The position numbers and the translations under genes are program-made. Below are positions 33,775 through 63,464 of a DNA stretch of 64,000 nucleotides, piece after piece. Position 1 is the first letter of the stretch; the number at the start of each line of letters is the position of its first letter. The DNA comes from Bdellovibrionota bacterium. GTDB lineage: Bacteria > Bdellovibrionota_C > UBA2361 > SZUA-149 > CAZDWZ01. The notes under the pieces are model-generated. The model had not been told where the DNA came from. It was given only the letters and a program-made list of their open reading frames with translations, and searched no databases. The stretch covers positions 3,175,541-3,239,540 of the forward strand of contig JAXLVP010000001.1 in the NCBI GenBank assembly GCA_046328905.1, given 5' to 3'.

Positions 33775-34167
33775 GCGTTCTCTGATTATCCGCTCGCACG
33801 CTTCCCAACAGAAGCGGCGGGCGGAAGCGCGAAGAGCGCACAGGATGGCACGGAGGTGCAACCGAAGGGGGCGCAAGGACGCGAGATGGTCGTTTTCAAC
33901 GGACTGATTGCCGGCATCACTACCTCGCATCTACGGAAAAGGAATTGTTCGCTTTTTCCTTTGCGTTCTTCGCGCTTTCGCCCGTAGCGCGTGGCTTTGC
34001 GCGCGATCTCGCGCTTGCATATTTGGCGGAGGTGTTTTGATTGCCCCGGATACCGGTGAAACTAACGGCTGAGCCCGTGCGATTGTGACAAGCTTTACTC
34101 AGAAACGACACTCGCCTGCAGTCGATAATACGGTTGAACGAAGATACTTACCCAGGAGGGAAACCGT

Positions 34168-35304: not shown

Positions 35305-35879
35305 ACTGCCTCCCTCTTTGTTATCGGTATCCAACAGATGTTCATCTTTTTGAGCTCTGCGATCGTGCGTAGTTCGTAGGACTTCAAACCAGCGAGGTTC
35401 GTGACACAAGAGTCAGCCCAGTCTTCAACGACGAGTTTTGCTGCGGCTTGAGTATTGGGGGCATCTACAAATGTCATCGCTCCCTGTGGGGCTATCGGAG
35501 CGAGGAGCGGCCGCAGATCCGGAATGCACGCACATCGATTTCCGTTCGGAGTGCCGCTGCGACTCGCAAAATAGAGCGGTGGATTGAAAAGCCAAAACGC
35601 ATATTCGGAACGTACCTCGAATGTCAGGTCGAGTGTCGCTTTCGCCGCCAAATGATGAACGTGCGGGAGAAACATGAGTCGCCGAGCTCGGGAGGGATGT
35701 TTCAAAATCTCCAGACCCTCGTCGAAGGTCGGTGCGTGGATGAGGCGTGAGGTGAGCGATCGATCCCGCAGAAAATGTTGCGCCGCCCGGTCACAACAGG
35801 TCCCAGGAGGAAGGGAGATAACTTCGAGCTCCTCTTCAGACCCTGAGGTCGCTCTGGTTGAACTGCCACGACACATCAT
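35301..35879 (-). CDS. hypothetical protein (middle gene of MarR-GNAT operon)
   Basis: Translationally coupled on both sides. No family recognised. Start is uncertain (35879 or 35915). Confidence 0.5.
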   Translation of the reverse strand: MMCRGSSTRATSGSEEELEVISLPPGTCCDRAAQHFLRDRSLTSRLIHAPTFDEGLEILKHPSRARRLMFLPHVHHLAAKATLDLTFEVRSEYAFWLFNPPLYFASRSGTPNGNRCACIPDLRPLLAPIAPQGAMTFVDAPNTQAAAKLVVEDWADSCVTNLAGLKSYELRTIAELKKMNICWIPITKREAV

Positions 35880-36814
35880 AAATCGGTGATGTACCACTCG
35901 TCGCAAGCTTTCCACAGAGCGGGGCCGAATCGTTGCCGGCTCCGTTTAAACCCGCACTTCTCGTAAAGGCCTTTGCCAAGAGCCATCCGGCTCGTTGTCT
36001 CAACGTAGCATCGCTGGAAACCGAGCTCTCGCGCCTTCTCGAGACATGTCTCGAGAAGGCGTTTCCCTAGTCCAGCTTGTCTCGCCTCCGGCAAAACAAA
36101 CAGCTTTCGCAGCTCGCAGATATGTTTCGGCGCTTCAGCGAGCTCAGCGATTCCAGCCGACCCGACGATTTTCTCATTCCGAACAGCCACGAGATACAGC
36201 GCGCGCGGCTTCTGAAATGCCTCGTAGGGCGAGCTGAACTCCTCAGGATAGGCGAAATATTCCGGCCCATCGAATCCGAATTCATTCATCACTTTCCGAA
36301 TGAGCTGTGTCACTTGCGCGTTGTCGCCACGTCGAATCGGACGGATGTCGTAGTTCTGTTGAAGGCGTACCTTCTTCAACGTTTTGGCGAAGAGTGAAAC
36401 ACCTTCTTCGAGTATTCCACGTTCGGAACGAGAGAGCAGAGCGAGCACTTGCTCGGCGGTAGCGGAGCGCTGTCTGTTGGTGCTTTCGATCAGCTCATGA
36501 CCCTTCTTGGTCGGGAGAATCGGCTTCTGACGCTTGTCACGTGCATCGACAGCGGTCTGCACCAGACCGGAGCTCACCAGAGAGCTGATGAGGCGGCTCG
36601 CGGCCGACTTATCGATTTCGAGAGCGACAGCAAGCTCGGCTGTGGTCCGGACACCCTGCGTCGTCACCTCGAAGAGTGCTCGCAACCCCGAGACGCCGAC
36701 CTCATCAGCTATCTCTGCTTTTTCGAGGAGCCGTAGTTCCGTCAGCAGCGAGTTGAGCGCCTCGCAGAGGCTGCGAGTCTGGTCCAATGGGATAGCTTTC
36801 GACGGTAGGTGCAT
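35876..36814 (-). CDS. MarR-family HTH fused to GNAT N-acetyltransferase
   Basis: N-terminal winged-helix MarR-like segment (TTAELAVALEIDKSAASRLISSLVSSGLV). C-terminal GNAT motifs (RRGD..Q and LFVLPEARQAGLGKRLL). Confidence 0.8.
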   Translation of the reverse strand: MHLPSKAIPLDQTRSLCEALNSLLTELRLLEKAEIADEVGVSGLRALFEVTTQGVRTTAELAVALEIDKSAASRLISSLVSSGLVQTAVDARDKRQKPILPTKKGHELIESTNRQRSATAEQVLALLSRSERGILEEGVSLFAKTLKKVRLQQNYDIRPIRRGDNAQVTQLIRKVMNEFGFDGPEYFAYPEEFSSPYEAFQKPRALYLVAVRNEKIVGSAGIAELAEAPKHICELRKLFVLPEARQAGLGKRLLETCLEKARELGFQRCYVETTSRMALGKGLYEKCGFKRSRQRFGPALWKACDEWYITDL

Positions 36815-36890
36815 AAGTCAACCAATCAGGTGTCACACGCAAGCATAGCATCCCGCCCGCCGAAAGACAAACGCGCTGACGGACTCACAA

Positions 36891-36928
36891 ATCGTATCCT
36901 CAGGGCGTCCGATATTTTCGGGGACAAT
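36891..36928 (+). repeat. palindromic repeat element (same family as 58.9-63.4 kb copies) with GGGGACAATG tail
   Basis: ATCGTATCCTC-AGGGCGTC-CGATAT-TTTC-GGGGACAATG lies in the MarR-GNAT / Cys-rich-gene intergenic region, about 77 nt upstream of the MarR-GNAT start. Confidence 0.5.
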
Positions 36929-37323
36929 GCATAGTGAAACTGTCACTTCGGTAAGCGCGATAACGTTCAACTGGGACGAATGGCGTGAACGCTGAAGACC
37001 GAGGTAAGCGACGAGGGCGGGGATCAGGAGAAACGATAGGAGTTGCGAGGAATGGTCAGAATCGGGAGGAATAGTACGAAGAGCGACGAACGCAAGAATC
37101 GGGCATGATTGTGAGGGAGCTTCGTGGAGACCACAAACGGGTCATGACTCGTTGGAACGTCAATTGAGACCCTTCGTTCGCCGAAGCCTCAGTGCAAACC
37201 TTCAACTTACCATGGGACGATGCTCGCTCTCGGATGCTTGAATAGGAGATTCGTGATAAATCTTCGTCGACGCTGCACGGAGAGTAGCGTCCTCAGAAAA
37301 ACGAACGACTCTAGAGCTCCGCG

Positions 37324-43702: not shown

Positions 43703-44485
43703 CTACTCGTCCACAGACCCGCCTGCGTCGCAGAGCCATAGCGTTTGTGTGGCGGTGAGAATATCAAGACACACGAGATAGCCGTAAGCGATCGTAGCCA
43801 AAAGGCAGAGGAACGCGGGTCCAGGCGATGCGGCATTATCCGTGAGAAGCAAGGCGTATACCACTACCACTGCCATGGACACCATGAATTTGCGAAACGT
43901 CCGATGGTAGAGCAGGTAAAGAGCTCGCCGTGCCCGACGGAGTGTCTCCTGCGGACCGAAATTGTATGCAGTCGTGCCCGAAGGACGCAACACAATGTAT
44001 GCCGACGCGCAAACCCCGAAAAGGAGTGGAGCGCTGATGAACAGCAGGTGGTTCCAACCTGGAACCGAGTTGTAAGTGCATACAATCGCTATTCCCAATG
44101 TTACCGTAGCGGCTACTGCGAGCTCGAGCAGCGCTCCCTTGCGGGCGGTCACTACGTTTCCGCGAATAGCATCTAGCTCGTCATTCAGCATTGTCATGAA
44201 GACCTCGATCGCCGAAAGGCAAAAAAAAAGTGTGCGAAACTCTGACATCGAGAGAGTGCGATGTCGGAGGGATAGGTGAGAAGAGGTGTCGAAGAGAAGG
44301 AGCGGAAACGCAGCGAGATAGTAATATAAGTGGAAAGTCCCCGCAATCGCCTGAACGCTGAGGTGGCGGCTCGGAATGATGAAGCTGTTGTGATCGCTCC
44401 GTCGAAGAATCAAGCATCGCTCTTTCCATCGCAACTGGGCCCGCTGAGGAACAAAGCTCGGCATCGCGCTTGGCCATGCCGTCAC
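43703..44485 (-). CDS. hypothetical integral membrane protein
   Basis: 260 aa with 6-7 hydrophobic helices. Confidence 0.5.
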   Translation of the reverse strand: MTAWPSAMPSFVPQRAQLRWKERCLILRRSDHNSFIIPSRHLSVQAIAGTFHLYYYLAAFPLLLFDTSSHLSLRHRTLSMSEFRTLFFCLSAIEVFMTMLNDELDAIRGNVVTARKGALLELAVAATVTLGIAIVCTYNSVPGWNHLLFISAPLLFGVCASAYIVLRPSGTTAYNFGPQETLRRARRALYLLYHRTFRKFMVSMAVVVVYALLLTDNAASPGPAFLCLLATIAYGYLVCLDILTATQTLWLCDAGGSVDE

Positions 44486-50586: not shown

Positions 50587-51021
50587 TTACTTCGCTTTTT
50601 TCTCTGCGGCGATCTGTATTTGCTCGAGCATTTGACCCCACCCGCCGGTTACGTCCTTTTCAAGGCCTTCGGCAATGAAGCCGAAAGCTTGATGTGAGAA
50701 CTTCAGCAGCGTGCCGCCGTCCTGCTCAGTGAGCCGATAGATGATATGCGAGGCTACCGGATAGGACATCATCGTCGGCCCGATGAGCTCGAGGAGCTTC
50801 GGCGGCTTGATTGATTGAACGATTCCCCAAAGATGGCCCGTGTTGTTTCCGAGATCACGAAACCACCGCCCGCCCGGCCACGGTTCGAGCTTCATGCTCA
50901 TCTCTTTCATCGGTCCGTGCGGTTCGAGAAGCGTCTCGAAAACAATTTCCGTCGGTGCGGCGATTGTCAGCTCTTTGAAGACCTTCAGGGTCTTGATTTC
51001 CGATAGCGCGTTGTCTGCCAT
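50587..51021 (-). CDS. SRPBCC (AHSA1/polyketide-cyclase-like) domain protein
   Basis: 144 aa with START/Bet v1-like organisation. It is the canonical partner of the adjacent ArsR regulator. Confidence 0.78.
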   Translation of the reverse strand: MADNALSEIKTLKVFKELTIAAPTEIVFETLLEPHGPMKEMSMKLEPWPGGRWFRDLGNNTGHLWGIVQSIKPPKLLELIGPTMMSYPVASHIIYRLTEQDGGTLLKFSHQAFGFIAEGLEKDVTGGWGQMLEQIQIAAEKKAK

Positions 51022-51025
51022 GGCA

Positions 51026-51379
51026 TTATTTTCCTTTTTCTCTATCTCTTACCTTTTTCTCTGCGGCGCTCTTGATTGCCGTGAGGTGATCCGTCCAGAA
51101 GACCTCAAACGTCTTCGCCCAATCGAACAGCGGCTTGAGGCCGGTGGCATCGACTGAGTAGAGCTGTTGCCTACCGTCCCTCTTCACATTCACGAGGCCG
51201 ACCTCTTTCAACACCGCGAGATGTTTCGATACCTGCGGTTGTGTCCAATCGAGCTTCTCGACAAGCGTATTCACGCTGAGCTGGCCACCGGCCAGCACGT
51301 TCAGAATGGCGCGGCGCTTCGGCTCGGCGACTGCGTTGAAGACGTCGAAGGTGGTAGCTGCACGAGCCATGACCTTCAT
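51026..51379 (-). CDS. ArsR/SmtB family transcriptional regulator
   Basis: HTH segment KRRAILNVLAGGQLSVNTLVEKLDWTQPQVSKHLAVLKEVGLV. Start at the internal ATG. Confidence 0.8.
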   Translation of the reverse strand: MKVMARAATTFDVFNAVAEPKRRAILNVLAGGQLSVNTLVEKLDWTQPQVSKHLAVLKEVGLVNVKRDGRQQLYSVDATGLKPLFDWAKTFEVFWTDHLTAIKSAAEKKVRDREKGK

Positions 51380-51796
51380 TATATGCCGATATAGGCATAT
51401 GTCAAGCGGCGCGCTATTTTGGAGGCTAAAACGTGAAAGGGTTGCGTGATGAAGCAACGATGGGCCGGCTCGAGGCTCACAGCCTTGAACCGCCCACGGC
51501 GTACCTCGAAGCTACGCAGCGATAGTTTGGAGAATTGAACGAGAGCTTGGGCGTTTCGGCGTCGGCTGGTTCTGCGAACAAATCCTTCGGACAGCGTGAG
51601 ATCGAACGCGCCTCGACCTGGAAACGGATCGGTTCTGGCGAAATGGGATTGAGCTTGCTTTTCTATGTCTGAGAAACCGGTGTCAAAGAGCACGTGAATG
51701 CGCCGAAACAGGTTCCGTCTATGTAGTTGTGCGGCGCAGATTGTTAGGCAGCCGCGTTTACTAACGACTGTTTACTCGAGGTTTTGATACATTTCT

Positions 51797-52078
51797 ATGA
51801 AAAAACTTATCTCGCTGTGCGCGCTGGCTGCGCTGTATGCGGGTCCCGTCCTTGCCGAATCCCCGGCCGTAAAAACAGACGCTGCAACGACACCTCCCAA
51901 AGCATCTGTTGAAAAAGCAAAAGAAGAAAACGCTGCAGATAAAAAGGTCGAAAAGAAAGAAGTCGATAAGAAGGAAGTTGCAGCAACCAGCGAAGAGTCG
52001 GCAGCGAAAGGTGCTGAACCGACGAAAGCGGCAGGCGAAAAGCCGGTCGAACACACTGAGCACAAAGAGACGAAATAA
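51797..52078 (+). CDS. small secreted Lys/Glu/Ala-rich protein
   Basis: Signal peptide MKKLISLCALAALYAGPVLA followed by a 70-aa low-complexity K/E/A/T-rich region. Followed by a strong terminator. Confidence 0.55.
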   Translation: MKKLISLCALAALYAGPVLAESPAVKTDAATTPPKASVEKAKEENAADKKVEKKEVDKKEVAATSEESAAKGAEPTKAAGEKPVEHTEHKETK

Positions 52079-52438: not shown

Positions 52439-53662
52439 ATGGCAGCGCACATTGATCTTAACGAAGAGCGAAAGTTCTCACCAATCTCCGACGTTCAGAG
52501 TCGTTACAAGCTTCTCAACAACCTCGATCGAGTGCTTGGGTGGATTCAGACCGGTGACACTGTGCCGATTCTGATTAATCTCACCTTGACGAATCGCTGC
52601 ACGCACAAGTGCCCGATGTGCACGTCGAAAGACCTTCTCGACGACCGGACCGCCCCGCTCGAGAGAGTGAAGGAGATTATCACAGAGCTCAAATCCCTTG
52701 GTGTGAAAGCGTTTGGACTGGGTGGCGGCGGAGACCCGACGTGTCATCCTCATTTTGAGGAAGTGATCAGATTCATCGGCGAGCAGGGCATGGAAGTTGG
52801 CATCACGACCAACGGACAGCTTCTTACGCCGGGAATCATCGCTGCGGCGGTCGAGCACTGCACCTGGATGCGTGTCAGCCTCGATGCCGACTGTCCCGAG
52901 ACCTATCGAAAGGTTCACGGATTGGGACAGGCAGAGTTTGAGCAGGTGAAGCAAAACGTACGCGCTCTTGTCGCGGAAAAGAAGCGTCAGGGAAGCTCGG
53001 TAGCGCTGGGCGCGACCTATCTCCTCGGTCAGCACACATTAGACGGCGCTTATGGAGCAACTGCGCTCGCTCGGGAGCTCGGCGTAGACTATATGCGCCT
53101 GCGGCCGTTTTTTATCTGGCAAACAGGGAAGGGAAAAAAGGACGCTGAAACTCAGCTTGTTGAGCTGGAACGAAAGCGAACAGGGGGCCGCTCATTCGAT
53201 GAGAAACGTGCCGGCGGAGATGAATTCTTTGCCGGAGCGGCTGCGGAGCTCGAGCGCTGCAAGACTCTGGAGACAGATTCATTCTCCGTGTCGTTTCCTG
53301 AGGCGCGAGTGAATCGCAAGGAAGAGTTGAAAAAGCGGGTTCACCGCTGCTGCTCCGTTCATCACTTTACAGTAGTTATCGCCGCCGATCTGAATGTCTA
53401 TCCGTGCTGTATGTTGGAAGACACGCCGAAGTACGTGTTGGGCAATCTAAAGAACCAAAGCTTTCGAGAGATGTGGGAGTCTTCACAACGCCGCGACGCG
53501 TGCTCACGTATCGATTTTTCCGACTGTCCGAACCCGTGCATGCTCGAAAACCACAATGAGTTATTGTGGGAGCTTCGGGAAGGGCAGCTTCGCAGCGACA
53601 CGAAGCTTTCAGATATCCTCGATGCTACTCGGACCAAGATTCCGCACGCGAACTTTTTATAA
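52439..53662 (+). CDS. radical SAM protein with C-terminal SPASM domain (peptide/protein maturase-like)
   Basis: The CTHKCPMC motif (CxxxCxxC) follows an LINLTLTNRC beta-strand. A GGGGDP glycine-rich SAM motif is present. C-terminal Cys cluster CCSVHH..VYPCCMLED..GNL..SFREMWES..DACSRIDFSDCPNPC is typical of SPASM/twitch auxiliary Fe-S domains. RBS AAGGAGG. Confidence 0.85.
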   Translation: MAAHIDLNEERKFSPISDVQSRYKLLNNLDRVLGWIQTGDTVPILINLTLTNRCTHKCPMCTSKDLLDDRTAPLERVKEIITELKSLGVKAFGLGGGGDPTCHPHFEEVIRFIGEQGMEVGITTNGQLLTPGIIAAAVEHCTWMRVSLDADCPETYRKVHGLGQAEFEQVKQNVRALVAEKKRQGSSVALGATYLLGQHTLDGAYGATALARELGVDYMRLRPFFIWQTGKGKKDAETQLVELERKRTGGRSFDEKRAGGDEFFAGAAAELERCKTLETDSFSVSFPEARVNRKEELKKRVHRCCSVHHFTVVIAADLNVYPCCMLEDTPKYVLGNLKNQSFREMWESSQRRDACSRIDFSDCPNPCMLENHNELLWELREGQLRSDTKLSDILDATRTKIPHANFL

Positions 53663-55806: not shown

Positions 55807-56153
55807 GAATGGTTGCCTGTATCAAGATAAATTTGTTTACACAGGTCGATGACGTTTCGAAAAGAGCAAAAGAGTACTGGTATTCCGCTGATGTGTTCCC
55901 AATTTGCTTCAGCGCGGGATTCTCGATATCCTCCATGCTCCCTCGCGTGCTCTTTGTCCCATCTCGCAATCTCTTCCAGTATCAACTTTTGTCCTCAATC
56001 ATCCGGCGACGTACGCGATGTTTGAGGAAGAACGGAATCAGGTTTTTGGGAAGCTTTGTTGCTTCAATCGCTCCTCGGAGAGCGATTGAAGCAGCCAAGC
56101 TTCGTAGGTTTGGCGAATGTCGATTCACTCTTTCACAGTGGGGTTCGACGACG

Positions 56154-56720
56154 ATGAGTGGGCTTTTGCAACGCGGTCTCTCCCTGGATGCGCCGGACGG
56201 CTACGTCAGATTCGCCCCGGGTCACGACCCGAGCTGGATCGGAGAAGTGTCGGCCACAGCGCCTGTCCACGGCCGGATTCGCCTTGACCCTCGATTCCAC
56301 GTCGGCGCGAGTGGCATCTCGCTTCGCGTCAACGCGCCCATCGGCACCGAACGCGACGACCCGGATCGCGATGCGATCGTGTTCCGGTCCAACCGCACGG
56401 GCGCCGTTGCCGGCAGTCTGGCGGTCGAGCTCAATCAGCCGGCTTCTGGGTTCACGTACGACGATCGAACCCAATCCGGCGTCGGCGACAAGGTCGTGAT
56501 CCTCGAACACGACCTCGGCGACCGGTGGCTCCGGGTCGAAGTGCGCGGTCGTGCGAACTTCAACGGGTGGACGCTCGTCATCCGTGGCGTCGAGCCCGGC
56601 CAGATCGAGCTTACCCGCGTTCAATGCGGAGTCCACGTGGTCGCCTCCGTGCAGCACGGGATGACGCCGCCGCCGTCGGTGCGCGAGCTCGTGGTTGTGA
56701 TCGAGGAGCGCCCTGACTGA
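56154..56720 (+). CDS. hypothetical protein in locally GC-elevated segment
   Basis: 188 aa from the first ATG. High-GC third positions on this strand. The competing antisense ORF is R/D-rich and looks less coding. Confidence 0.45.
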   Translation: MSGLLQRGLSLDAPDGYVRFAPGHDPSWIGEVSATAPVHGRIRLDPRFHVGASGISLRVNAPIGTERDDPDRDAIVFRSNRTGAVAGSLAVELNQPASGFTYDDRTQSGVGDKVVILEHDLGDRWLRVEVRGRANFNGWTLVIRGVEPGQIELTRVQCGVHVVASVQHGMTPPPSVRELVVVIEERPD

Positions 56721-57619: not shown

Positions 57620-58570
57620 TCATTGTTTTGATGCCTTCTCCGCAATCTCGAGCATGGCCAAATACAGCTCCTCCAGCACGGAGGTCGTTTGGCCATGGGC
57701 TTCGAGCATCGGCCACGGAAGGTTGATCGGCGGACGCCGGCCGGACTTCCCGCGCACTTCGATAGCGCGGTCCATCTCGCGATCCGCGGTGTCGAGCACC
57801 GATTGTTTGAGCCGAACCGCCTGGGTGCCGTCGAGCTCGACGACCTCGAAGCAATCCGGATCGCGGAAACCCCACGGACTGTGCCGCGCACCGAGGATGG
57901 CTTCGATCACGCCTTCGTTGCGAGCCGGGGAGGAGATGGTTGCACCGCCGCCGGTCGTCATGAAAACGAGGACCTCCGCGTGCTCGCCCAGAAGGCCGAG
58001 CAGCTTGATGAGCGGGATCGACTGGCGTGCGATCTCGAACGGAGACCCACTGGGGGCTGCGTTCTCCGCGACGGACACGACGAGCACAACCAGCTCAGCG
58101 AGGAGCGCGAACCGAAGCCGAAGCTCGTGGGCAATGAAGTCGCCGAGGTATGCGTCCCCCAGCAGCCAGCTGATGGCTTGGTTGATCCCCTTGTAGCGCT
58201 CCGGACTCTGCTGCGTTGCCACGCGAATGCCCGCGCGCATGGTTTGGAACCACGCATCGCCGAGTGCGTTTTTGAAGGCTTGTGTGTTGCGTGGCCCCGC
58301 GAGGGCGGTCATCGTCCGCGTCGTGGGGAAGCCGATGCGCTTGGGATCGTCCACAGTGCGGAGCCCGAACAGCTCGGGGCGATCACGTCGCCATGGTCCG
58401 ACCGACGACCACGCCTCCTCGTACAACTGCACGAGGTAGCGGTGGACGTCGGCGGCGTAATAGTCCACGGTGCGCTCCGGAATCCGAGAGAGATCTGGAG
58501 CGTTCTTCCCATCGCGTGGGCAGTGGCCGAACTTGCCGACCAGCCGCTGAAACAAGTCTTCATGGAACAT
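57620..58570 (-). CDS. hypothetical protein (possible EreA/ChaN/TraB-superfamily-like, unconfirmed)
   Basis: 316 aa from the internal ATG. Protein-like composition, whereas the antisense 370-aa ORF is R-rich. GC-elevated segment. Confidence 0.5.
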   Translation of the reverse strand: MFHEDLFQRLVGKFGHCPRDGKNAPDLSRIPERTVDYYAADVHRYLVQLYEEAWSSVGPWRRDRPELFGLRTVDDPKRIGFPTTRTMTALAGPRNTQAFKNALGDAWFQTMRAGIRVATQQSPERYKGINQAISWLLGDAYLGDFIAHELRLRFALLAELVVLVVSVAENAAPSGSPFEIARQSIPLIKLLGLLGEHAEVLVFMTTGGGATISSPARNEGVIEAILGARHSPWGFRDPDCFEVVELDGTQAVRLKQSVLDTADREMDRAIEVRGKSGRRPPINLPWPMLEAHGQTTSVLEELYLAMLEIAEKASKQ

Positions 58571-58941
58571 TGGTGTGTCCCTAACCTGGGGAACCGACAC
58601 ATTCCGCGAAGAGAGCGCGAGGCACGTAACGCAGCTTGTGCAGGATTGCGGGAGAACTTCGAAGGGGAGAGAGCGCCAAACAGGGTGAGCGCGCATTTTA
58701 GCGTAAAATTGGAGGGAAATCCAAATCGAGCCTCGGGCTGTCTGGCTACTCAGCTGATACGATTGGAACCCCAGTCCGGCGGGTTAGAGGTAGTGGGGTA
58801 GGAGGGGCTGCATGTAAGCGCTAACCTGCTGTTAGATTCGACTCCGCTTCCACAGACCGCCATGTCAGACCGATATCGGGACGAAGTGCTTGACCTTTTT
58901 AGCTAAAGTTCTGCGCCAAAGTCTAATGAGTGCGCGTGCTC

Positions 58942-59092
58942 AATATCGTGTCCGCTCGATATCGTGTGCTCTGAGGACTCGATATGGGGACAGTGTAAGT
59001 TGAATATCGTGTGCTCTGAGGACTCGATATCGGGGACAGTGCGTTGAATATCGTGTCCTCTGAGGACTCGATATATTGAGGACGAGTTACGA
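58942..59092 (+). repeat. tandem array (about 3.5 copies, 44-bp period) of a palindromic repeat element
   Basis: Units GAATATCGTGTGCTCTGAGGACTCGATAT + CGGGGACAGTG(yr) repeat with 1-2 mismatches. The core forms a 13-bp stem hairpin (ATATCGTGTCCTC / GAGGACTCGATAT). Confidence 0.7.
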
Positions 59093-59424
59093 TGTCGCCG
59101 GGGTGAGGCCAGCCAAGCCCTTGAGGCTACTCTGTCGATCACAGGCAAATTGACCATCCCGGGCTTCACAGCTATAAAAGCGCAGCTTTCAGTGTTCTTT
59201 TATAGATCCCCTCGATTGAGAAGAGCAGTTTCCTGTACTCGGCTGGCTCGTTCCGCTAGCCGGGTGCATGAGTTGTCCTACTGTTTTTTTGAAGGAGAGA
59301 TGGGCGACCACTAAGACTCGCCATCTGTACGCTTCTTTGTTGGGCGAGCCGGAATTGTCTTCGGCTCCCATACCCTGTCTCCGATCGCTTCGCTGAAGAG
59401 ATCATCACTCCTAGGAACTAAACC

Positions 59425-60936
59425 ATGGTGTCCTCTACTCTTGACGCTCCGGAACTCGCTGTACCGGACGCGGCTCTGACTGTCGCTCAACGTTTTCTTA
59501 AGCAATCTGTAATTCCGGCTCTGGTCGGTGGAAAGCCCGAGCTCGGTTCGTACAGCGGAACTTTTAAAGTCTTCGATCCGGGAAATACCTCGGAACCGAT
59601 CGCCACCGTCGCGCTGATGGATGGTGCCGACGTTAATCGTGCCGCGGAACAGGCGCTTAAAGCATTTCAGAAGACTGATTGGGCGCGCATGACGCCGTCG
59701 AAACGGTCGGAGCTGCTGCATCGATATGCCGACAAGATTCACGAGCTGCGTGAAGTCGTCGCAGCGCTCGAGACGCTGGAGGCAGGCAAGATCTACGAGC
59801 AGTCGCTGGGTTGCGTCGACAACTGCGTCACAACGCTCCGCTACTATGCGGATCTCGCCGCCAATTTCGGTTGGACCTCACCGGTGGAAGGCTGTGAAGT
59901 TGCGCATTACGCGCACTACCAGCCATCGGGCGTGTGCGGTCTGATCATTCCGTGGAACTTCCCGGTTATACTTTACGGATGGGGAGTCGCGCCGGCGCTT
60001 GCCGCTGGTAACACGGTGGTCATTAAGCCCGCAGAAAACACTCCGATTGCGACGCTCTACCTCGCGAGCCTCGCCAGCCAAGCCGGAATTCCGGACGGGG
60101 TGATCAACGTGGTTCCTGGCTTCGGCCGGGATGCAGGCGCGGCGTTGGCGGCCAATCCGAATCTCGGTCACATGCGATTCACGGGCAGCCCGGGAGTTGC
60201 AGCGGCCGTCGGAATGGCATGTGCGCAGAACCATGTCCCATTCGCGAGCGAAGCAGGCGGGAAAGGTGCGGCCTATGTCGCGGAAGATGCGGATGTGGAA
60301 GCTGCTGCCAAGAACTTGGCCGCCGCGATCACATTCCACGCCGGACAGGTCTGTTGTACGGCAACACGCATCGTGCTGCATCGCAGCGTGGCGGACGCGT
60401 TCCTCGACAAATATCTTACGGCGGTGAAAACCGTGAAAATCGGTCATCCGATGCACAAAGGCACCGAGATGGGACCGCTGGTGAGTGAGGTGCAACGCCA
60501 ACGCGTGTTGGGCTATGTCAACCGAATCCGTCCGCGCGGCAACTTCCTGCTCGAAGGCGCCGCCGTCGAATCTGCCGAAGGGATGCCCGGCTGCTATGTC
60601 TCGCCGTGTATCTTCGAAGCGCCGGTCGACCACGCCGCCAACCAAGAAGAGATCTTCGGACCCATGGCCGGCGTCCTCCGTGTCGGCAGCGACGAGGAAG
60701 CGACACGTGTCGTGAACTCGTCCAAGTATGGTCTGTCGAATTCGATCTTCACCGCAGATCCCGAACGCTACCTGGCCCTCGCGAAAGCGCAACGTGTCGG
60801 AAACGTCTGGCACAACGCACACAACGTCTTCGCACCGGGCCTGCACTACGGGGGCGTAGGCATCTCCGGTAACGCCGGCGTGAATTCGATCGACACGATG
60901 CTGCAGACCTGCCTGCGTTCGTCGATCATGGCGTAG
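59425..60936 (+). CDS. aldehyde dehydrogenase family protein
   Basis: GQVCCTATRIVLH catalytic Cys region, the EAGGKG variant of ELGGKS, PWNFPV, and VIKPAENTP. Confidence 0.85.
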   Translation: MVSSTLDAPELAVPDAALTVAQRFLKQSVIPALVGGKPELGSYSGTFKVFDPGNTSEPIATVALMDGADVNRAAEQALKAFQKTDWARMTPSKRSELLHRYADKIHELREVVAALETLEAGKIYEQSLGCVDNCVTTLRYYADLAANFGWTSPVEGCEVAHYAHYQPSGVCGLIIPWNFPVILYGWGVAPALAAGNTVVIKPAENTPIATLYLASLASQAGIPDGVINVVPGFGRDAGAALAANPNLGHMRFTGSPGVAAAVGMACAQNHVPFASEAGGKGAAYVAEDADVEAAAKNLAAAITFHAGQVCCTATRIVLHRSVADAFLDKYLTAVKTVKIGHPMHKGTEMGPLVSEVQRQRVLGYVNRIRPRGNFLLEGAAVESAEGMPGCYVSPCIFEAPVDHAANQEEIFGPMAGVLRVGSDEEATRVVNSSKYGLSNSIFTADPERYLALAKAQRVGNVWHNAHNVFAPGLHYGGVGISGNAGVNSIDTMLQTCLRSSIMA

Positions 60937-61304: not shown

Positions 61305-62690
61305 ATGGCTATTTCTTTGAATTCCTTAGCGGTGAGACTTGTCGCCGTAGCGATGCTTGGTAAGGCGGGCGGCGTCGCACTCAATTATTACGATGCCATG
61401 CGGAGCTCCGACCGATGCTTCTCGGTAGAGAGTCCGGATGCGCGCTTTGTAATTGAGACTTTTCCGGATTTCAGGGTGTTCGCGATGCCGGGTGATGGCG
61501 GCTGTCACGACAGTTCATCAACACTCCGACTCCGGACGGCTAGCGGAAAACTGATCCACGAACAGCACGCTGAAACATTTGACCTTCGAGTGCAGTGGGA
61601 GACGGAATATGACGCAGTTCGTGTGCCCTATTCCGATGGGGTGGACAAGTTTGAATGGTGGCTGTGGAACCGGCCAGAGGATTCGGCGAAACCGGCTGAC
61701 TACGTCCAGCGCCGTCTCAATATGATGGTTGAGAACGCCGACCTTTCGTCCATCAAGCGCATGCTACGCGACGGAGCCAAGCTCGACGCGGTCGATCAAG
61801 AAGGCAAGCTCCCGCTCGTTCTTGCTGCCGGCAGCGGGGACGAGAACCTCGTGAAACGTCTGCTGGACGCCGGTGCGAACGTGAATCAAGCGGATGGTTT
61901 TGGGAGCACCGCACTCCACTGGTCTCGCTCCGATAATGGGAATTTCGGTGTGTCAAGGATTACGAAGCTTCTCGTTGAGGCCGGCGCTGCTGTCAACGCA
62001 CGTGATCATTTCGGACAAACACCGCTCGCGAGCGGATTCCGCAACCTTGAAGAGGTTACTTACTTGGTGGACCATGGTGCTGATGTGACGGCTGTGAGCA
62101 AAGACGGCACTCCGGTCATCGCATCTTACTGTTCCGATCCAAAAGTCTTTTCTTTCCTGCTTCAGAAGGGAGCGAAAGTCGACTTCCACGCGCCTTGGGT
62201 GACCCCGACGGTTTATCAGCTAGCGCTCGGAGGCAAAACCGATAGGCTCCGTTATTTCGAAAGTCAGGGTGCAGATATACAGACGGCGCTCTCGATGCGG
62301 AATGAGCTCGTGCCGCTCGCCGAAGCAATTCGAGCGGCAAATTTCGGAATGGTCGTTTTCCTAATCGAGCACCACGCAGACCTGAACGAGCTGGACCCGA
62401 CCAGCGGTAAGCGAATTTGGGAGCTGCTCGATGACGTTCGGAAGGAGAATCGAGAGACACCGGAAGAGTGCAGGGCCTCGAAGACTCAAGTTGCTTTCGA
62501 TTGCGATTTCGAGACTAGGCTCGAACGGATTGCAAAGTTTGTAAGCGAACACGGCCAGCGGAGACGCGGGCAAAGTGTGACGCGAAAGGCGGAGCGGGGA
62601 ACCAAAGGGCAAGTCTCGGGTGAAAAAGGTGCGAACGCAGCTTCAGGCGGGCATGGGTCTTCAGCGCCGATGGTGACGCTGCTTAGCTAA
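61305..62690 (+). CDS. ankyrin-repeat protein with unique N-domain and basic C-terminal tail
   Basis: At least 5 ankyrin repeats from about residue 140 (G-x-LPLVLAAGSGDENLVKRLLDAGANVNQADGFGSTALHW, then GQTPLASG...). N-terminal 130 aa has no match. C-terminus is K/R/G-rich. Confidence 0.72.
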   Translation: MAISLNSLAVRLVAVAMLGKAGGVALNYYDAMRSSDRCFSVESPDARFVIETFPDFRVFAMPGDGGCHDSSSTLRLRTASGKLIHEQHAETFDLRVQWETEYDAVRVPYSDGVDKFEWWLWNRPEDSAKPADYVQRRLNMMVENADLSSIKRMLRDGAKLDAVDQEGKLPLVLAAGSGDENLVKRLLDAGANVNQADGFGSTALHWSRSDNGNFGVSRITKLLVEAGAAVNARDHFGQTPLASGFRNLEEVTYLVDHGADVTAVSKDGTPVIASYCSDPKVFSFLLQKGAKVDFHAPWVTPTVYQLALGGKTDRLRYFESQGADIQTALSMRNELVPLAEAIRAANFGMVVFLIEHHADLNELDPTSGKRIWELLDDVRKENRETPEECRASKTQVAFDCDFETRLERIAKFVSEHGQRRRGQSVTRKAERGTKGQVSGEKGANAASGGHGSSAPMVTLLS

Positions 62691-62867
62691 CGACCGCGGA
62701 AGCGATGCGGCATATCGTGACTTCTAGGACGGATGTCGCCGGGAGATATCTCGGCGAGCGATGGTAACTACGGTCGGCCATCAAGGCATGAATGTGTCTT
62801 CTCTTCGAACGAGGCACGTCGAGCAAGGCGTAAATCCTGCCCGCCAACGGAGGTGGCTGCAGCGAAG

Positions 62868-62990
62868 TATATCGCGTATATCAAGTCACGTGTATCCCGC
62901 GTCCTCGGAAGATGCGATATCGGCGACGGTGACCCCGAGCGGCTAACAGACTGCCGAGGCCTATCGTATCCTCTGAGGAGCCGATATGGT
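62868..62990 (+). repeat. two degenerate copies of the palindromic repeat element family
   Basis: TATATCGCGTATATC...GCGATATCGGCGACGGTG and CCTATCGTATCCTCTGAGGAGCCGATATGG lie between the ankyrin gene and the Phd-like gene. Confidence 0.5.
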
Positions 62991-63137
62991 CGCGGCTGTT
63001 TAGCTGTGCGTTAGAGTCAAATAAGAAACTGAATCAATGCGGAAGCTTCCACGGGGATAGGTAAAAACGGAAGCCGAGCTCGCGACGATAACCATGTGTG
63101 TAGAACAGCAACTTCTCGCGAGAAGAGGACCTACACC

Positions 63138-63353
63138 ATGTTTCGAACAGATCAAATCGTCACATCGACGCAACTGATCCGCCACTTTCGCGCACTAGCA
63201 AGACGGATCGAGAAAACGCACGAGCCGCTTCTAATTTCGCAAAGGAATAGCCAATTTCTTGTGATACTAGAGGCGGGAATCTTCGAGAACCTGTTGGTCG
63301 CGCAGTACCAACCAGACTTCGACTACACTATCCCAGGAGCGAAAGTAGACTGA
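63138..63353 (+). CDS. Phd/YefM-like type II antitoxin (orphan)
   Basis: MFRTDQIVTSTQLIRHFRALARRIEKTHEPLLISQRNSQFLVILEAGIFENLL follows the Phd/YefM N-terminal pattern. No toxin gene follows. Confidence 0.5.
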   Translation: MFRTDQIVTSTQLIRHFRALARRIEKTHEPLLISQRNSQFLVILEAGIFENLLVAQYQPDFDYTIPGAKVD

Positions 63354-63396
63354 TTAGTGTATGCTTTCGAAGCGTATGTTTTTGGAAAGTCCTTCA

Positions 63397-63424
63397 TCGG
63401 GTCCTCTGAGGATACGATATCCGG
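63397..63424 (+). repeat. inverted-orientation copy of the palindromic repeat element
   Basis: TCGGGTCCTCTGAGGATACGATATCCGG is the near reverse complement of the 62960-62990 copy. Confidence 0.5.
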
Positions 63425-63464
63425 ACGCGCTTGGCGCTCAACTTAACCGTTCTTCGGTGAATGA

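What the first reader, a model, noticed from the sequence alone, without database searches (positions are those of the whole stretch)
58942..59092. Tandem 44-bp array of a hairpin-forming palindromic element upstream of the aldehyde dehydrogenase gene
About 3.5 near-identical direct repeats. Each contains the 27-bp palindrome ATATCG-TGT(G/C)CTC-T-GAGGACT-CGATAT (13-bp stem) plus a conserved tail CGGGGACAGTG. It is not CRISPR-like: the spacers are identical and only 15-16 nt long. An array of strong hairpins 330 bp upstream of aldH could be stacked operator sites, a REP/BIME-type element, iterons of a replication or partition locus, or a target of a structure-specific nuclease.
Basis: seen in the sequence. 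Interest (0 to 1): 0.6.

Follow-up and report, generated by a model that had tools for sequence, protein, structure and literature searches.

The report
Interspersed palindromic repeat, locally amplified in tandem
The hairpin array upstream of the aldehyde dehydrogenase gene is real, but decayed copies of the same ~40-bp element sit in at least four other gene-free gaps nearby, so it is most likely an ordinary REP-like interspersed repeat amplified in tandem here, not a control site specific to this gene.

Summary
The array is real. Three 27-bp imperfect palindromes (ATATCGTGTSCTCTGAGGACTCGATAT) start at 58959, 59004 and 59048, 45 and 44 bp apart, with decayed units on both sides (about 58871-59103). 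A second assembly of the same sample reproduces it exactly. It lies in an 854-bp gap between a divergent orphan gene and aldH.

It is not specific to this locus. A model built only from the three array units finds diverged copies at 36889, 62894, 62961 and 63394, all stronger than nearly every simulated window. More fragments lie just past the window end. Every copy is intergenic. Several keep the non-palindromic tail (CGGGGACAGTG), which points to spread by duplication.

Pairing shows no covariation, and most dispersed copies no longer fold better than shuffled sequence.

No rep, par, cas, integrase or transposase gene is in the window. The motif is absent from the genome, metagenome, viral, plasmid and phage collections searched. 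The only homologue of the orphan gene has no array upstream.

Best reading: a lineage-restricted REP-like interspersed extragenic palindrome family, amplified here by tandem duplication. Strict REP/RAYT membership is unproven: there is no GTAG, no RAYT gene was seen, and the units are head-to-tail. The genome-wide copy number could not be measured. Interest is low to moderate.

The parts
58871..58893 (+). Decayed unit: right arm, tail and junction (CGATAT-CGGGACGAAGTGC-TTGA), left edge of the array
   Evidence: Read from the sequence; repeat family D3; aligned with the other copies
58942..58962 (+). Truncated unit, ATATCGTGTCC-GC-TCGATAT; the central 9 nt are lost. Its right arm overlaps the left arm of palindrome 1 through the shared CGATATCG.
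   Evidence: (D2)
58959..58985 (+). Palindrome 1 (ATATCGTGTGCTCTGAGGACTCGATAT); 11 of 13 positions pair
   Evidence: Exact match; ssDNA fold -6.1 kcal/mol, z -3.7
58986..59003 (+). Linker 1 (18 nt): tail GGGGACAGTG, then junction TAAGTTGA
   Evidence: D5
59004..59030 (+). Palindrome 2, identical to palindrome 1
59031..59047 (+). Linker 2 (17 nt): tail CGGGGACAGTG, then junction CGTTGA
59048..59074 (+). Palindrome 3 (ATATCGTGTCCTCTGAGGACTCGATAT); best stem, 12 of 13 positions pair
   Evidence: ssDNA fold -8.6 kcal/mol, z -5.9
59078..59103 (+). Decayed right-arm variant (GAGGAC-GAGTTA-CGATGT-CGCCGGGG), right edge of the array. It shares the 12-mer GATGTCGCCGGG with 62732-62743.
36889..36929 (+). 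Dispersed copy with tail (AAATCGTATCCTCAGGGCGTCCGATAT-TTTCGGGGACAATG), 75 bp upstream of the MarR-GNAT gene start, in a divergent gap
   Evidence: nhmmer 10.4 bits with the model built from array units only; 3 of 200 simulated windows reach that score; sequence
62894..62931 (+). Dispersed copy with tail (ATCCCGCGTCCTCGGAAGATGCGATAT-CGGCGACGGTG)
   Evidence: nhmmer 14.3 bits, E 2.5e-3; 0 of 200 simulated windows; sequence
62961..62998 (+). Dispersed copy (CTATCGTATCCTCTGAGGAGCCGATAT-GGTCGCGGCTG), upstream of the Phd-like ORF
   Evidence: nhmmer 19.3 bits, E 6.8e-5; 0 of 200 simulated windows
63394..63430 (.). Dispersed copy (TCATCGGGTCCTCTGAGGATACGATAT-CCGGACGCGC), 41 nt after the Phd-like stop codon. 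Its orientation is ambiguous.
   Evidence: nhmmer 18.5 bits on both strands; 92% complementary to the 62962 copy (I8)
62712..62745 (+). Tentative, strongly decayed copy (ATATCGTGACTTCTAGGAC-GGATGTCGCCGGGAG), 22 nt after the ankyrin gene stop codon
   Evidence: By eye plus a shared 12-mer. Not significant in nhmmer or the covariance-model search.
59150..59178 (+). Putative sigma-70 promoter of aldH (TTGACC, 17 nt, TATAAA). If it is real, the array lies 58-210 bp upstream of the -35 box and is not part of the aldH transcript.
   Evidence: Read from the sequence. The consensus scan missed it because the last base of the -10 box is A. Inference only.
57620..58570 (-). Flanking orphan gene (316 aa, 64% GC), divergent from aldH. 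No family assignment.
59425..60936 (+). Flanking aldehyde dehydrogenase gene
   Evidence: Pfam Aldedh, E 7e-131

Best explanation
The array is a local tandem amplification of a short interspersed extragenic palindromic element. The element is about 38-41 bp: a 27-bp imperfect palindrome followed by an 11-14-nt tail. It belongs to a repeat family private to this uncultured Bdellovibrionota lineage and behaves like the REP/BIME-type repeats of proteobacteria.

Shown:
- The family spread by duplication into several intergenic gaps.
- The isolated copies are decaying.
- At the aldH locus, a unit that includes the GTTGA junction was duplicated head-to-tail, and the three central copies are still nearly identical.

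Inferred:
- The tandem copies arose by slipped-strand or unequal recombination, not by repeated insertion.
- Dispersal needs a protein acting in trans, encoded elsewhere in the genome. This could be a RAYT-like HUH/Y1 enzyme acting on the hairpin in single-stranded DNA, or another protein that recognises ATCG..TCCTC / GAGGA..CGATAT.
- At this locus the array sits upstream of the likely aldH promoter. It is probably not transcribed with aldH and has no dedicated regulatory role. Any effect would be at the DNA level, through protein binding or cruciform formation.
For: 1. Array reality: TRF score 193; three exact 27-mers against none in shuffles; identical array in an independent Logan assembly.
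2. Dispersed family: a model built from the three array units alone hits 62962 (19.3 bits), 63396 (18.5), 62893 (14.3) and 36889 (10.4). In 200 simulated 64-kb windows the maximum was 12.0 bits, and only 3 reached 10.4. Further fragments lie about 110-170 bp past the window end (L004 2152-2215).
3. All five loci are intergenic. Intergenic DNA is at most about 23% of the window, so four independent loci all falling there has P of about 0.003 or less.
4. The non-palindromic tail is shared between loci: CGGGGACAGTG in the array, CGGGGACAATG at 36889, CGGCGACGGTG at 62894. That indicates common descent rather than convergent binding sites.
5. The GTTGA junction is repeated between units, so the duplicated unit included it.
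6. Clustered copies are conserved and single copies are decayed. There is no covariation (79.8% of cells paired against 80.2% in shuffles), and three of the four dispersed copies do not fold better than shuffles. The REP literature describes the same pattern: singlets are decaying remnants, and REPINs occur tandemly repeated up to five times (PMC3337134).
7. Size, imperfect palindrome and extragenic position match the published description of REPs as 35-40-nt stem-loops (PMC3479197).
8. The element is restricted to this lineage. There were no hits in genome, metagenome or viral contigs, apart from one coding locus of Candidatus Saccharibacteria found once each in the genome and metagenome collections, at the rate expected by chance. 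Plasmid and phage collections gave nothing.
Against: - Genome-wide copy number, the defining property of REPs, could not be measured. Only 64.3 kb of a 3.26-Mb genome is visible.
- Four of the five loci fall within 5.3 kb (58.9-64.2 kb), so the family may be a local phenomenon rather than genome-wide.
- No RAYT or other transposase gene is in the window.
- No GTAG-like tetranucleotide flanks the copies.
- The units are head-to-tail, not alternating as in BIMEs and REPINs.
- Two of the five loci lie between divergently transcribed genes. From my own recollection of the E. coli literature, not checked here, that position is unusual for classical REPs.
- Every copy also lies 45-470 bp upstream of some gene start, which fits a binding-site family equally well.
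Confidence: 0.55

Rival explanations
1. The palindromes are operator sites of one DNA-binding regulator, forming a small regulon. Candidates are the orphan Phd/YefM-like protein encoded between copies, or the MarR-GNAT protein that has a copy 75 bp upstream of its start. Under this reading the triple array is a high-occupancy site controlling aldH and/or the divergent orphan gene.
For: Every copy lies 45-470 bp upstream of a gene start. The motif has two-fold symmetry, with an outer box ATCG/CGAT and an inner box TCCTC/GAGGA separated by two variable bases. Copies sit next to two putative DNA-binding proteins.
Against: The conserved non-palindromic tail and the repeated junction point to duplication, not convergence. 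In the dispersed copies, conservation is asymmetric: the inner-left TCCTC and outer-right CGATAT are invariant while their partner boxes drift, which a symmetric dimer does not predict. The 44-45-bp spacing equals 4.2-4.3 helical turns, so the sites do not face the same side. The Phd match is below Pfam's threshold (E 9.5e-4, 19.3 bits against a cut-off of 29.8). The homologue locus of the orphan gene lacks the sites.
Confidence: 0.2
2. The element acts in RNA, as a transcribed hairpin that stabilises or punctuates mRNAs (3'-UTR or intercistronic protection, as reported for REPs), or as part of a small RNA.
For: Copies at 62712 and 63394 lie 22 and 41 nt after stop codons of plus-strand genes. 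The plus-strand RNA folds more stably than the minus strand (-68.5 against -53.4 kcal/mol). Array hairpins are -9 to -13 kcal/mol as RNA.
Against: No U-tract follows any copy and no terminator-like site was found. The array lies between divergent genes, upstream of the likely aldH promoter. There is no Rfam match. There is no covariation, and three of four dispersed copies fold no better than shuffles.
Confidence: 0.1
3. The copies are recombination sites bounding small gene modules, analogous to attC or pdif sites. The run ankyrin gene | Phd-like | 139-aa membrane protein | next gene would then be a cassette-like array.
For: Successive co-oriented small genes at 62.7-64.3 kb are each separated by copies. 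The cargo includes an antitoxin-like gene and orphan genes. The copies at 62962 and 63396 flank the Phd-like ORF and are 92% complementary.
Against: No integrase or recombinase gene is in the window. The attC core sites RYYYAAC/GTTRRRY are not conserved across the family: GTTGAAT occurs only at array junctions. At 27 bp the palindrome is far shorter than attC sites. It does not resemble the dif consensus (my own knowledge). A tandem triple site has no cassette between its units.
Confidence: 0.06
4. The array is a set of iterons or a centromere of an integrated plasmid or phage replicon or partition locus.
For: It consists of tandem direct repeats of about 44 bp in a long non-coding gap, next to high-GC orphan genes.
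Against: No rep, par, relaxase, integrase or phage genes appear among about 65 ORFs. No adjacent AT-rich unwinding region was seen: GC is 0.52-0.55 around the array. There are no matches in the plasmid or phage collections. Dispersed single copies are not expected for iterons.
Confidence: 0.03

Closest known systems
REP / BIME / REPIN elements of Enterobacteria and Pseudomonas (mobilised by RAYT, the Y1 HUH transposase TnpA-REP)
   Same: Both are short (about 27-40 nt) imperfect palindromes with a conserved stem mismatch. Both are exclusively extragenic in the sample, dispersed and also clustered. Clustered copies are well conserved while single copies decay. Tandem clusters of up to five are known in P. 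fluorescens SBW25 (PMC3337134). Both are specific to one lineage.
   Different: There is no 5' GTAG or GTGG guide tetranucleotide. Units are head-to-tail rather than in alternating (inverted) orientation. No RAYT gene was seen in 64 kb. Copy number is unknown. Two loci are in divergent promoter regions. The phylum (Bdellovibrionota) is not named in the two REP papers read here (PMC3479197, PMC3337134), and a literature search found no report of REPs in it.
MIRU-type interspersed tandem repeats of mycobacteria (40-100-bp VNTR units at many intergenic loci); comparison from my own knowledge, not checked in papers here
   Same: Both have units of about 44 bp, occur as short tandem arrays at some loci and as single units at others, and are confined to intergenic gaps.
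   Different: MIRUs are not palindromic and often overlap the stop and start codons of flanking genes in an operon. Here the unit is built around a hairpin, and the array sits in a divergent gap.
Integron attC sites / CALIN clusters
   Same: Both are imperfect palindromes with an outer and an inner paired box. Both recur between co-oriented small genes that include an antitoxin-like gene.
   Different: The R''/R' core sequences are absent from the family. The palindrome is half the minimum attC length. There is no intI gene. Tandem copies have no cassette between them.

Membership tests
REP (repetitive extragenic palindrome) | Short (about 20-40 nt) imperfect palindrome able to form a stem-loop | tested here: met
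   27-bp palindrome with 11-12 of 13 positions paired, about 38-41 nt with the tail. ssDNA folds of -6.1 to -8.6 kcal/mol, z -3.7 to -5.9, for the array copies.
REP (repetitive extragenic palindrome) | Predominantly extragenic location | tested here: met
   All five loci are intergenic. Intergenic DNA is at most about 23% of the window, giving P of about 0.003 or less for four independent loci.
REP (repetitive extragenic palindrome) | High copy number, dispersed around the chromosome (tens to hundreds of copies) | tested here: inconclusive
   About 10 copies or fragments at five loci in 64.3 kb, but four loci cluster within 5.3 kb. The rest of the 3.26-Mb genome is not in any searchable collection.
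REP/RAYT system | Conserved 5' GTAG (GT[AG]G) tetranucleotide at the foot of the hairpin (PMC3479197) | tested here: not met
   The 5' flanks differ between loci (GTTGA, GCTCG, GAGGC, GTCCT, CTCAC). There is no GTAG on either strand.
REP/RAYT system | A RAYT (Y1_Tnp, PF01797) gene in the genome, typically flanked by REPs | tested here: inconclusive
   None found among about 65 ORFs of the window scanned against Pfam.
BIME / REPIN | Two REPs in inverted orientation separated by a linker, forming a long hairpin | tested here: not met
   Units are head-to-tail, judged by the asymmetric positions 7/21 and 10/18 and by the tails. Because each unit is itself nearly palindromic, neighbouring units can still pair: 29-nt arms, 83% complementary, 18-nt loop (I1).
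CRISPR array | Repeats separated by unique spacers of about 26-72 nt, usually with cas genes | tested here: not met
   The linkers are 17-18 nt and near-identical. No cas genes are present. PADLOC gave only weak wHTH matches to the MarR-GNAT protein.
Integron attC | R'' RYYYAAC and R' GTTRRRY core sites, length of at least about 57 bp, integron-type integrase nearby (features from my own knowledge) | tested here: not met
   The core sites are not conserved across copies. The palindrome is 27 bp. No integrase gene is in the window.
Plasmid/phage iterons or partition centromere | Adjacent rep or par gene | tested here: not met
   No such genes in the window. No plasmid or phage matches.
Enhancer-binding-protein UAS of a sigma-54 promoter | A -24/-12 promoter (TGGCAC-N5-TTGC) 100-200 bp downstream and a bEBP gene | tested here: not met
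   No match with up to 3 mismatches between 58571 and 59424. The window-wide count is below the chance expectation. No Sigma54_activat domain was found.

The most novel reading that the evidence does not exclude
The palindrome family is the recognition site of a dedicated protein of this deep-branching lineage. One candidate is the orphan Phd/YefM-like protein encoded between copies, acting as a free-standing regulator. Another is an unrecognised recombinase that uses the sites to shuffle small gene modules. The triple array upstream of aldH would then be a functional high-affinity cluster rather than junk.
Probability: 0.1. Interest if true: 0.55.

Novelty: new member of a known kind. Interest (0 to 1): 0.25.

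Why it matters
If the reading is right, this is a previously undescribed REP-like repeat family in an uncultured Bdellovibrionota lineage with no close sequenced relatives: the nearest AldH is 47-48% identical. That would add to the known phylogenetic range of such repeats and give a strain-typing or VNTR marker. It would also warn annotators not to read the array as a regulatory or CRISPR-like feature. It does not open a new mechanism. Its main value is to remove a false lead (aldH-specific operators or iterons) and to define an element model that can be run on the full genome.

Tried and rejected
1. Collection scans. The strict pattern ATATCGNGTNCTCNGAGNACNCGATAT gave 0 hits in genome, metagenome and viral contigs. 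The looser pattern ATCGNNTCCTCNGAGGANNCGATAT gave one hit in the genome collection and one in the metagenome collection. Both are the same Saccharibacteria coding locus, at the chance rate and with no further copies. Viral contigs gave none, nor did right arm plus tail. blastn of the gap against plasmids and phages gave nothing.

2. Comparative genomics. The window's proteins are on record only for this MAG and one Logan assembly. AldH has no relative above 48% identity, so orthologous gaps cannot be compared. An exhaustive phmmer search found one homologue of the orphan gene (43% identity). Its contig has no array.

3. Coding potential. The 88-aa ORF across the array shares no words with any of 5.8 billion proteins and has no Pfam match. 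It is rejected as a gene.

4. Structure of the orphan protein. The single-sequence AlphaFold model has pLDDT 40.7. It is unusable, so no fold search was run.

5. RNA families. No Rfam hit reached gathering score. Below it there were only chance miRNA-model hits, E 0.26-0.39. No tRNA or tmRNA gene was found.

6. Covariation. There is none above shuffles, so the data neither require nor prove a selected hairpin.

7. Covariance-model search with filters off. It found no new confident copies. The match at 44239-44280 (15.6 bits) lacks the inner box and lies in an ORF. The large hairpin at 56050-56103 is not a member (9.3 bits).

8. Other readings. Sigma-54/UAS, attC, dif/pdif, parS and iteron readings were considered and rejected on sequence grounds and for lack of partner genes.

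Full report
**1. Observation**

The sequence at 58942-59092 is as described in outline. Tandem Repeats Finder reports a single array at 58959-59074: period 44, 2.6 copies, 93% matches, score 193. The next best tandem repeat in the window scores 50. The 27-mer ATATCGTGTSCTCTGAGGACTCGATAT occurs exactly at 58959, 59004 and 59048. No match appeared in 100 dinucleotide-preserving shuffles, even with three mismatches allowed. A truncated unit (ATATCGTGTCC-GC-TCGATAT) precedes the array at 58942-58962.

Reading outward shows further decayed units. On the left, 58871-58893 carries a right arm, tail and junction (CGATAT-CGGGACGAAGTGC-TTGA). On the right, 59078-59103 carries a right-arm variant (GAGGAC..CGATGT-CGCCGGGG). 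The array is therefore about 235 bp long, with three well-preserved central units.

A Logan assembly of run SRR26348422 (L001, 3.9 kb) reproduces the whole gap base for base. The copy number is thus not an artefact of one assembler.

Details to correct:
- The stem always has a T/T mismatch at positions 7/21. In two units it also has G/G at 10/18.
- Hairpin energies are moderate: ssDNA -6.1, -6.1 and -8.6 kcal/mol; RNA -13.2, -9.0 and -13.0 kcal/mol.
- The linkers are 18 and 17 nt and are similar, not identical.

**2. Setting**

By third-position GC, the real gene to the left is the minus-strand ORF. Its only database match is the same protein starting at M43: 316 aa, 57620-58570, annotated [quoted passage not shown], on a 3,256,849-bp contig. 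The array therefore lies in an 854-bp gap between this orphan gene (minus strand) and aldH (59425-60936, plus strand; Pfam Aldedh E 7e-131).

A reasonable sigma-70 promoter (TTGACC, 17 nt, TATAAA) at 59150-59178 would place the array upstream of the aldH transcription start. This is my reading. The consensus scan found nothing. No sigma-54 promoter is present in the gap.

The window has no tRNA genes and no Rfam match. About 65 ORFs were scanned against Pfam, and selected ones against PADLOC and NCBIfam. None encodes a transposase, integrase, Rep, Par or Cas protein.

**3. The element is not unique to this locus**

Weak matches to the half-site and tail near 62.9-63.4 kb led me to read that region. 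I then built an HMM from the three array units alone. It finds further copies at 62962-62987 (19.3 bits, E 6.8e-5), 63396-63424 (18.5 bits), 62893-62931 (14.3 bits) and 36889-36929 (10.4 bits).

In 200 simulated 64-kb sequences with the window's dinucleotide content, the best score was 12.0 bits and only three reached 10.4. A refined HMM and a covariance model with filters off recover the same set and add nothing confident.

A Logan contig that runs 347 bp past the window end (L004) contains two more fragments, at about window positions 64107-64170. The element is also the top repeat family in an unbiased repeat search of the whole window (D1 and D3).

All loci are intergenic. With at most about 23% of the window non-coding, four independent loci all falling there has a probability of about 0.003. 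That 23% is itself an overestimate, because small genes in 50.6-52.1 kb were not counted.

**4. What the copies share**

The alignment shows four parts:
- an outer box, ATCG / CGATAT;
- two variable positions on each side;
- an inner box, TCCTC / GAGGA;
- a non-palindromic tail after the right arm: CGGGGACAGTG in the array, CGGGGACAATG at 36889, CGGCGACGGTG at 62894.

The 5' flank is not conserved between loci, so the element is about 38-41 nt. A shared asymmetric tail is what descent from a common sequence predicts. Independently evolved binding sites do not predict it.

Inside the array, the extra junction GTTGA is repeated between units. The duplicated unit was therefore element plus junction, as in slippage or unequal exchange. 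Repeated insertion would not give this.

**5. Is the hairpin selected?**

Across eight copies, 79.8% of cells pair, against 80.2% in column shuffles. Double-sided changes do not exceed shuffles. Substitutions in the dispersed copies break pairing. Three of the four fold no better than shuffled sequence, as DNA or as RNA.

In the four dispersed copies, conservation is asymmetric. Inner-left TCCTC and outer-right CGATAT are invariant, while their partner boxes have 4 of 20 and 6 of 24 changes (counted).

The picture is a palindromic master sequence whose isolated copies are decaying, while the clustered copies remain nearly identical. Bertels and Rainey report the same contrast for REP singlets and doublets, and they note tandem REPIN arrays of up to five units (PMC3337134).

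**6. Distribution outside this genome**

The strict and relaxed motifs are absent from 185,579 species-representative genomes, from the JGI metagenome contigs and from IMG/VR. The only hits were a single Saccharibacteria coding locus found in two collections, at the chance rate. The plasmid and phage collections gave nothing.

The lineage has no close sequenced relative: the nearest AldH is 47-48% identical and comes from Planctomycetes. An exhaustive phmmer search found one true homologue of the orphan gene (P0122, 43% identity). On its contig (L005) the gene also has a long upstream gap. That gap has no array and no family copy. Only about 85 bp next to the gene is conserved, at 68%. The array is therefore not an ancestral part of that gene's control region.

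**7. Interpretation**

The best-supported account is a lineage-restricted interspersed extragenic palindromic repeat of the REP type, amplified in tandem at this locus.

- Shown: the array is real; a dispersed family exists; all copies are intergenic; shared tail and junction give a duplicative history; singletons are decaying; no partner genes are in the window.
- Inferred: how the family disperses. One candidate is a trans-acting HUH/Y1 enzyme acting on the hairpin in single-stranded DNA, by analogy with RAYT/TnpA-REP (PMC3479197). Also inferred is the absence of a dedicated function at aldH.

Strict membership of the REP/RAYT class is not established. There is no GTAG foot, no RAYT gene was seen, the units are head-to-tail, and copy number is untestable here. 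Four of the five loci lie within 5.3 kb, so a local phenomenon cannot be excluded.

The main rival is a family of binding sites for one regulator. The orphan Phd/YefM-like protein at 63138-63353 and the MarR-GNAT protein at 35876-36814 both have copies next to them. This rival stays viable because every copy is also upstream of some gene. The tail, the junction, the asymmetric decay and the off-phase 44-45-bp spacing argue against it.

RNA-level, cassette-boundary and iteron readings are less likely, for the reasons given under rival explanations.

**8. Verdict**

The locus-specific operator, iteron and CRISPR-like readings are not supported.

It is a new member of a known kind of repeat, of low to moderate interest. 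The decisive test is a scan of the full 3.26-Mb contig for copy number, intergenic bias and an associated RAYT-like gene. That test could not be run with the collections available.

Noticed in passing
window 57620-58570 (-) and 56154-56720 (+): Two orphan genes lie in GC-rich islands (64-67% GC, against 56% for the window). They flank a normal-GC glyoxalase/VOC gene. The 316-aa protein has exactly one homologue (43% identity) among 1.84 billion representative proteins and no family, defence-system or structure assignment.
   Followed up: partly
window 58590-58675 vs L005 750-830: About 85 bp just upstream of the orphan gene is 68% identical to the same position upstream of its only homologue. 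It contains TTCGAAG(A)GGGGAGAGA. This may be a conserved leader or promoter element.
   Followed up: partly
window 56050-56103: A large near-perfect hairpin: 24-nt arms, 92% complementary, 6-nt loop. It lies in the gap between the DUF1428 gene and the GC-rich ORF. It superficially resembles the family (ATCG..CTCCTC..GAG..CGAT) but scores only 9.3 bits with the covariance model.
   Followed up: partly
window 33818-33984: An inverted repeat with 28-nt arms (89% complementary) separated by 111 nt, in the gap 33775-34167. It has a MITE-like or long-hairpin architecture and is unrelated to the family studied.
   Followed up: no
window 63138-63353 (+): A Phd/YefM-like 71-aa ORF (Pfam E 9.5e-4, below the family threshold) with no recognisable toxin partner. 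The next gene encodes a 139-aa protein with no family match. The ORF is flanked on both sides by copies of the palindromic element.
   Followed up: partly
window 59185-59424 (+): If the TTGACC/TATAAA promoter is real, aldH has a leader of about 240 nt containing a 14-bp stem (about 59232-59272) and a second hairpin at about 59298-59330. The overall fold z-score is only -2.1 and there is no Rfam match.
   Followed up: partly
window 61305-62690 (+): An ankyrin-repeat protein (461 aa) matches the PADLOC candidate defence model PDC-M72A (E 9e-26). It also matches Legionella-type Ank effector models far below their cut-offs. All matches fall in the ankyrin-repeat region (residues about 132-273), so they probably reflect the repeats only.
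   Followed up: no
window 50587-52078 and 52439-53662: What looked like a 1.9-kb non-coding gap holds an ArsR-like HTH gene, a 144-aa gene and a lysine-rich 93-aa secreted protein. These functional labels are my reading of the ORF translations and were not checked against any family library. The gap lies upstream of a radical SAM/SPASM enzyme gene. Short repeats at 50597 and 51054 mark the ends of the two minus-strand genes.
   Followed up: no
window 59425-60936 (+): The nearest relatives of the aldehyde dehydrogenase are only 47-48% identical and mostly from Planctomycetes, although the MAG is labelled Bdellovibrionota. The lineage has no close sequenced relatives.
   Followed up: no
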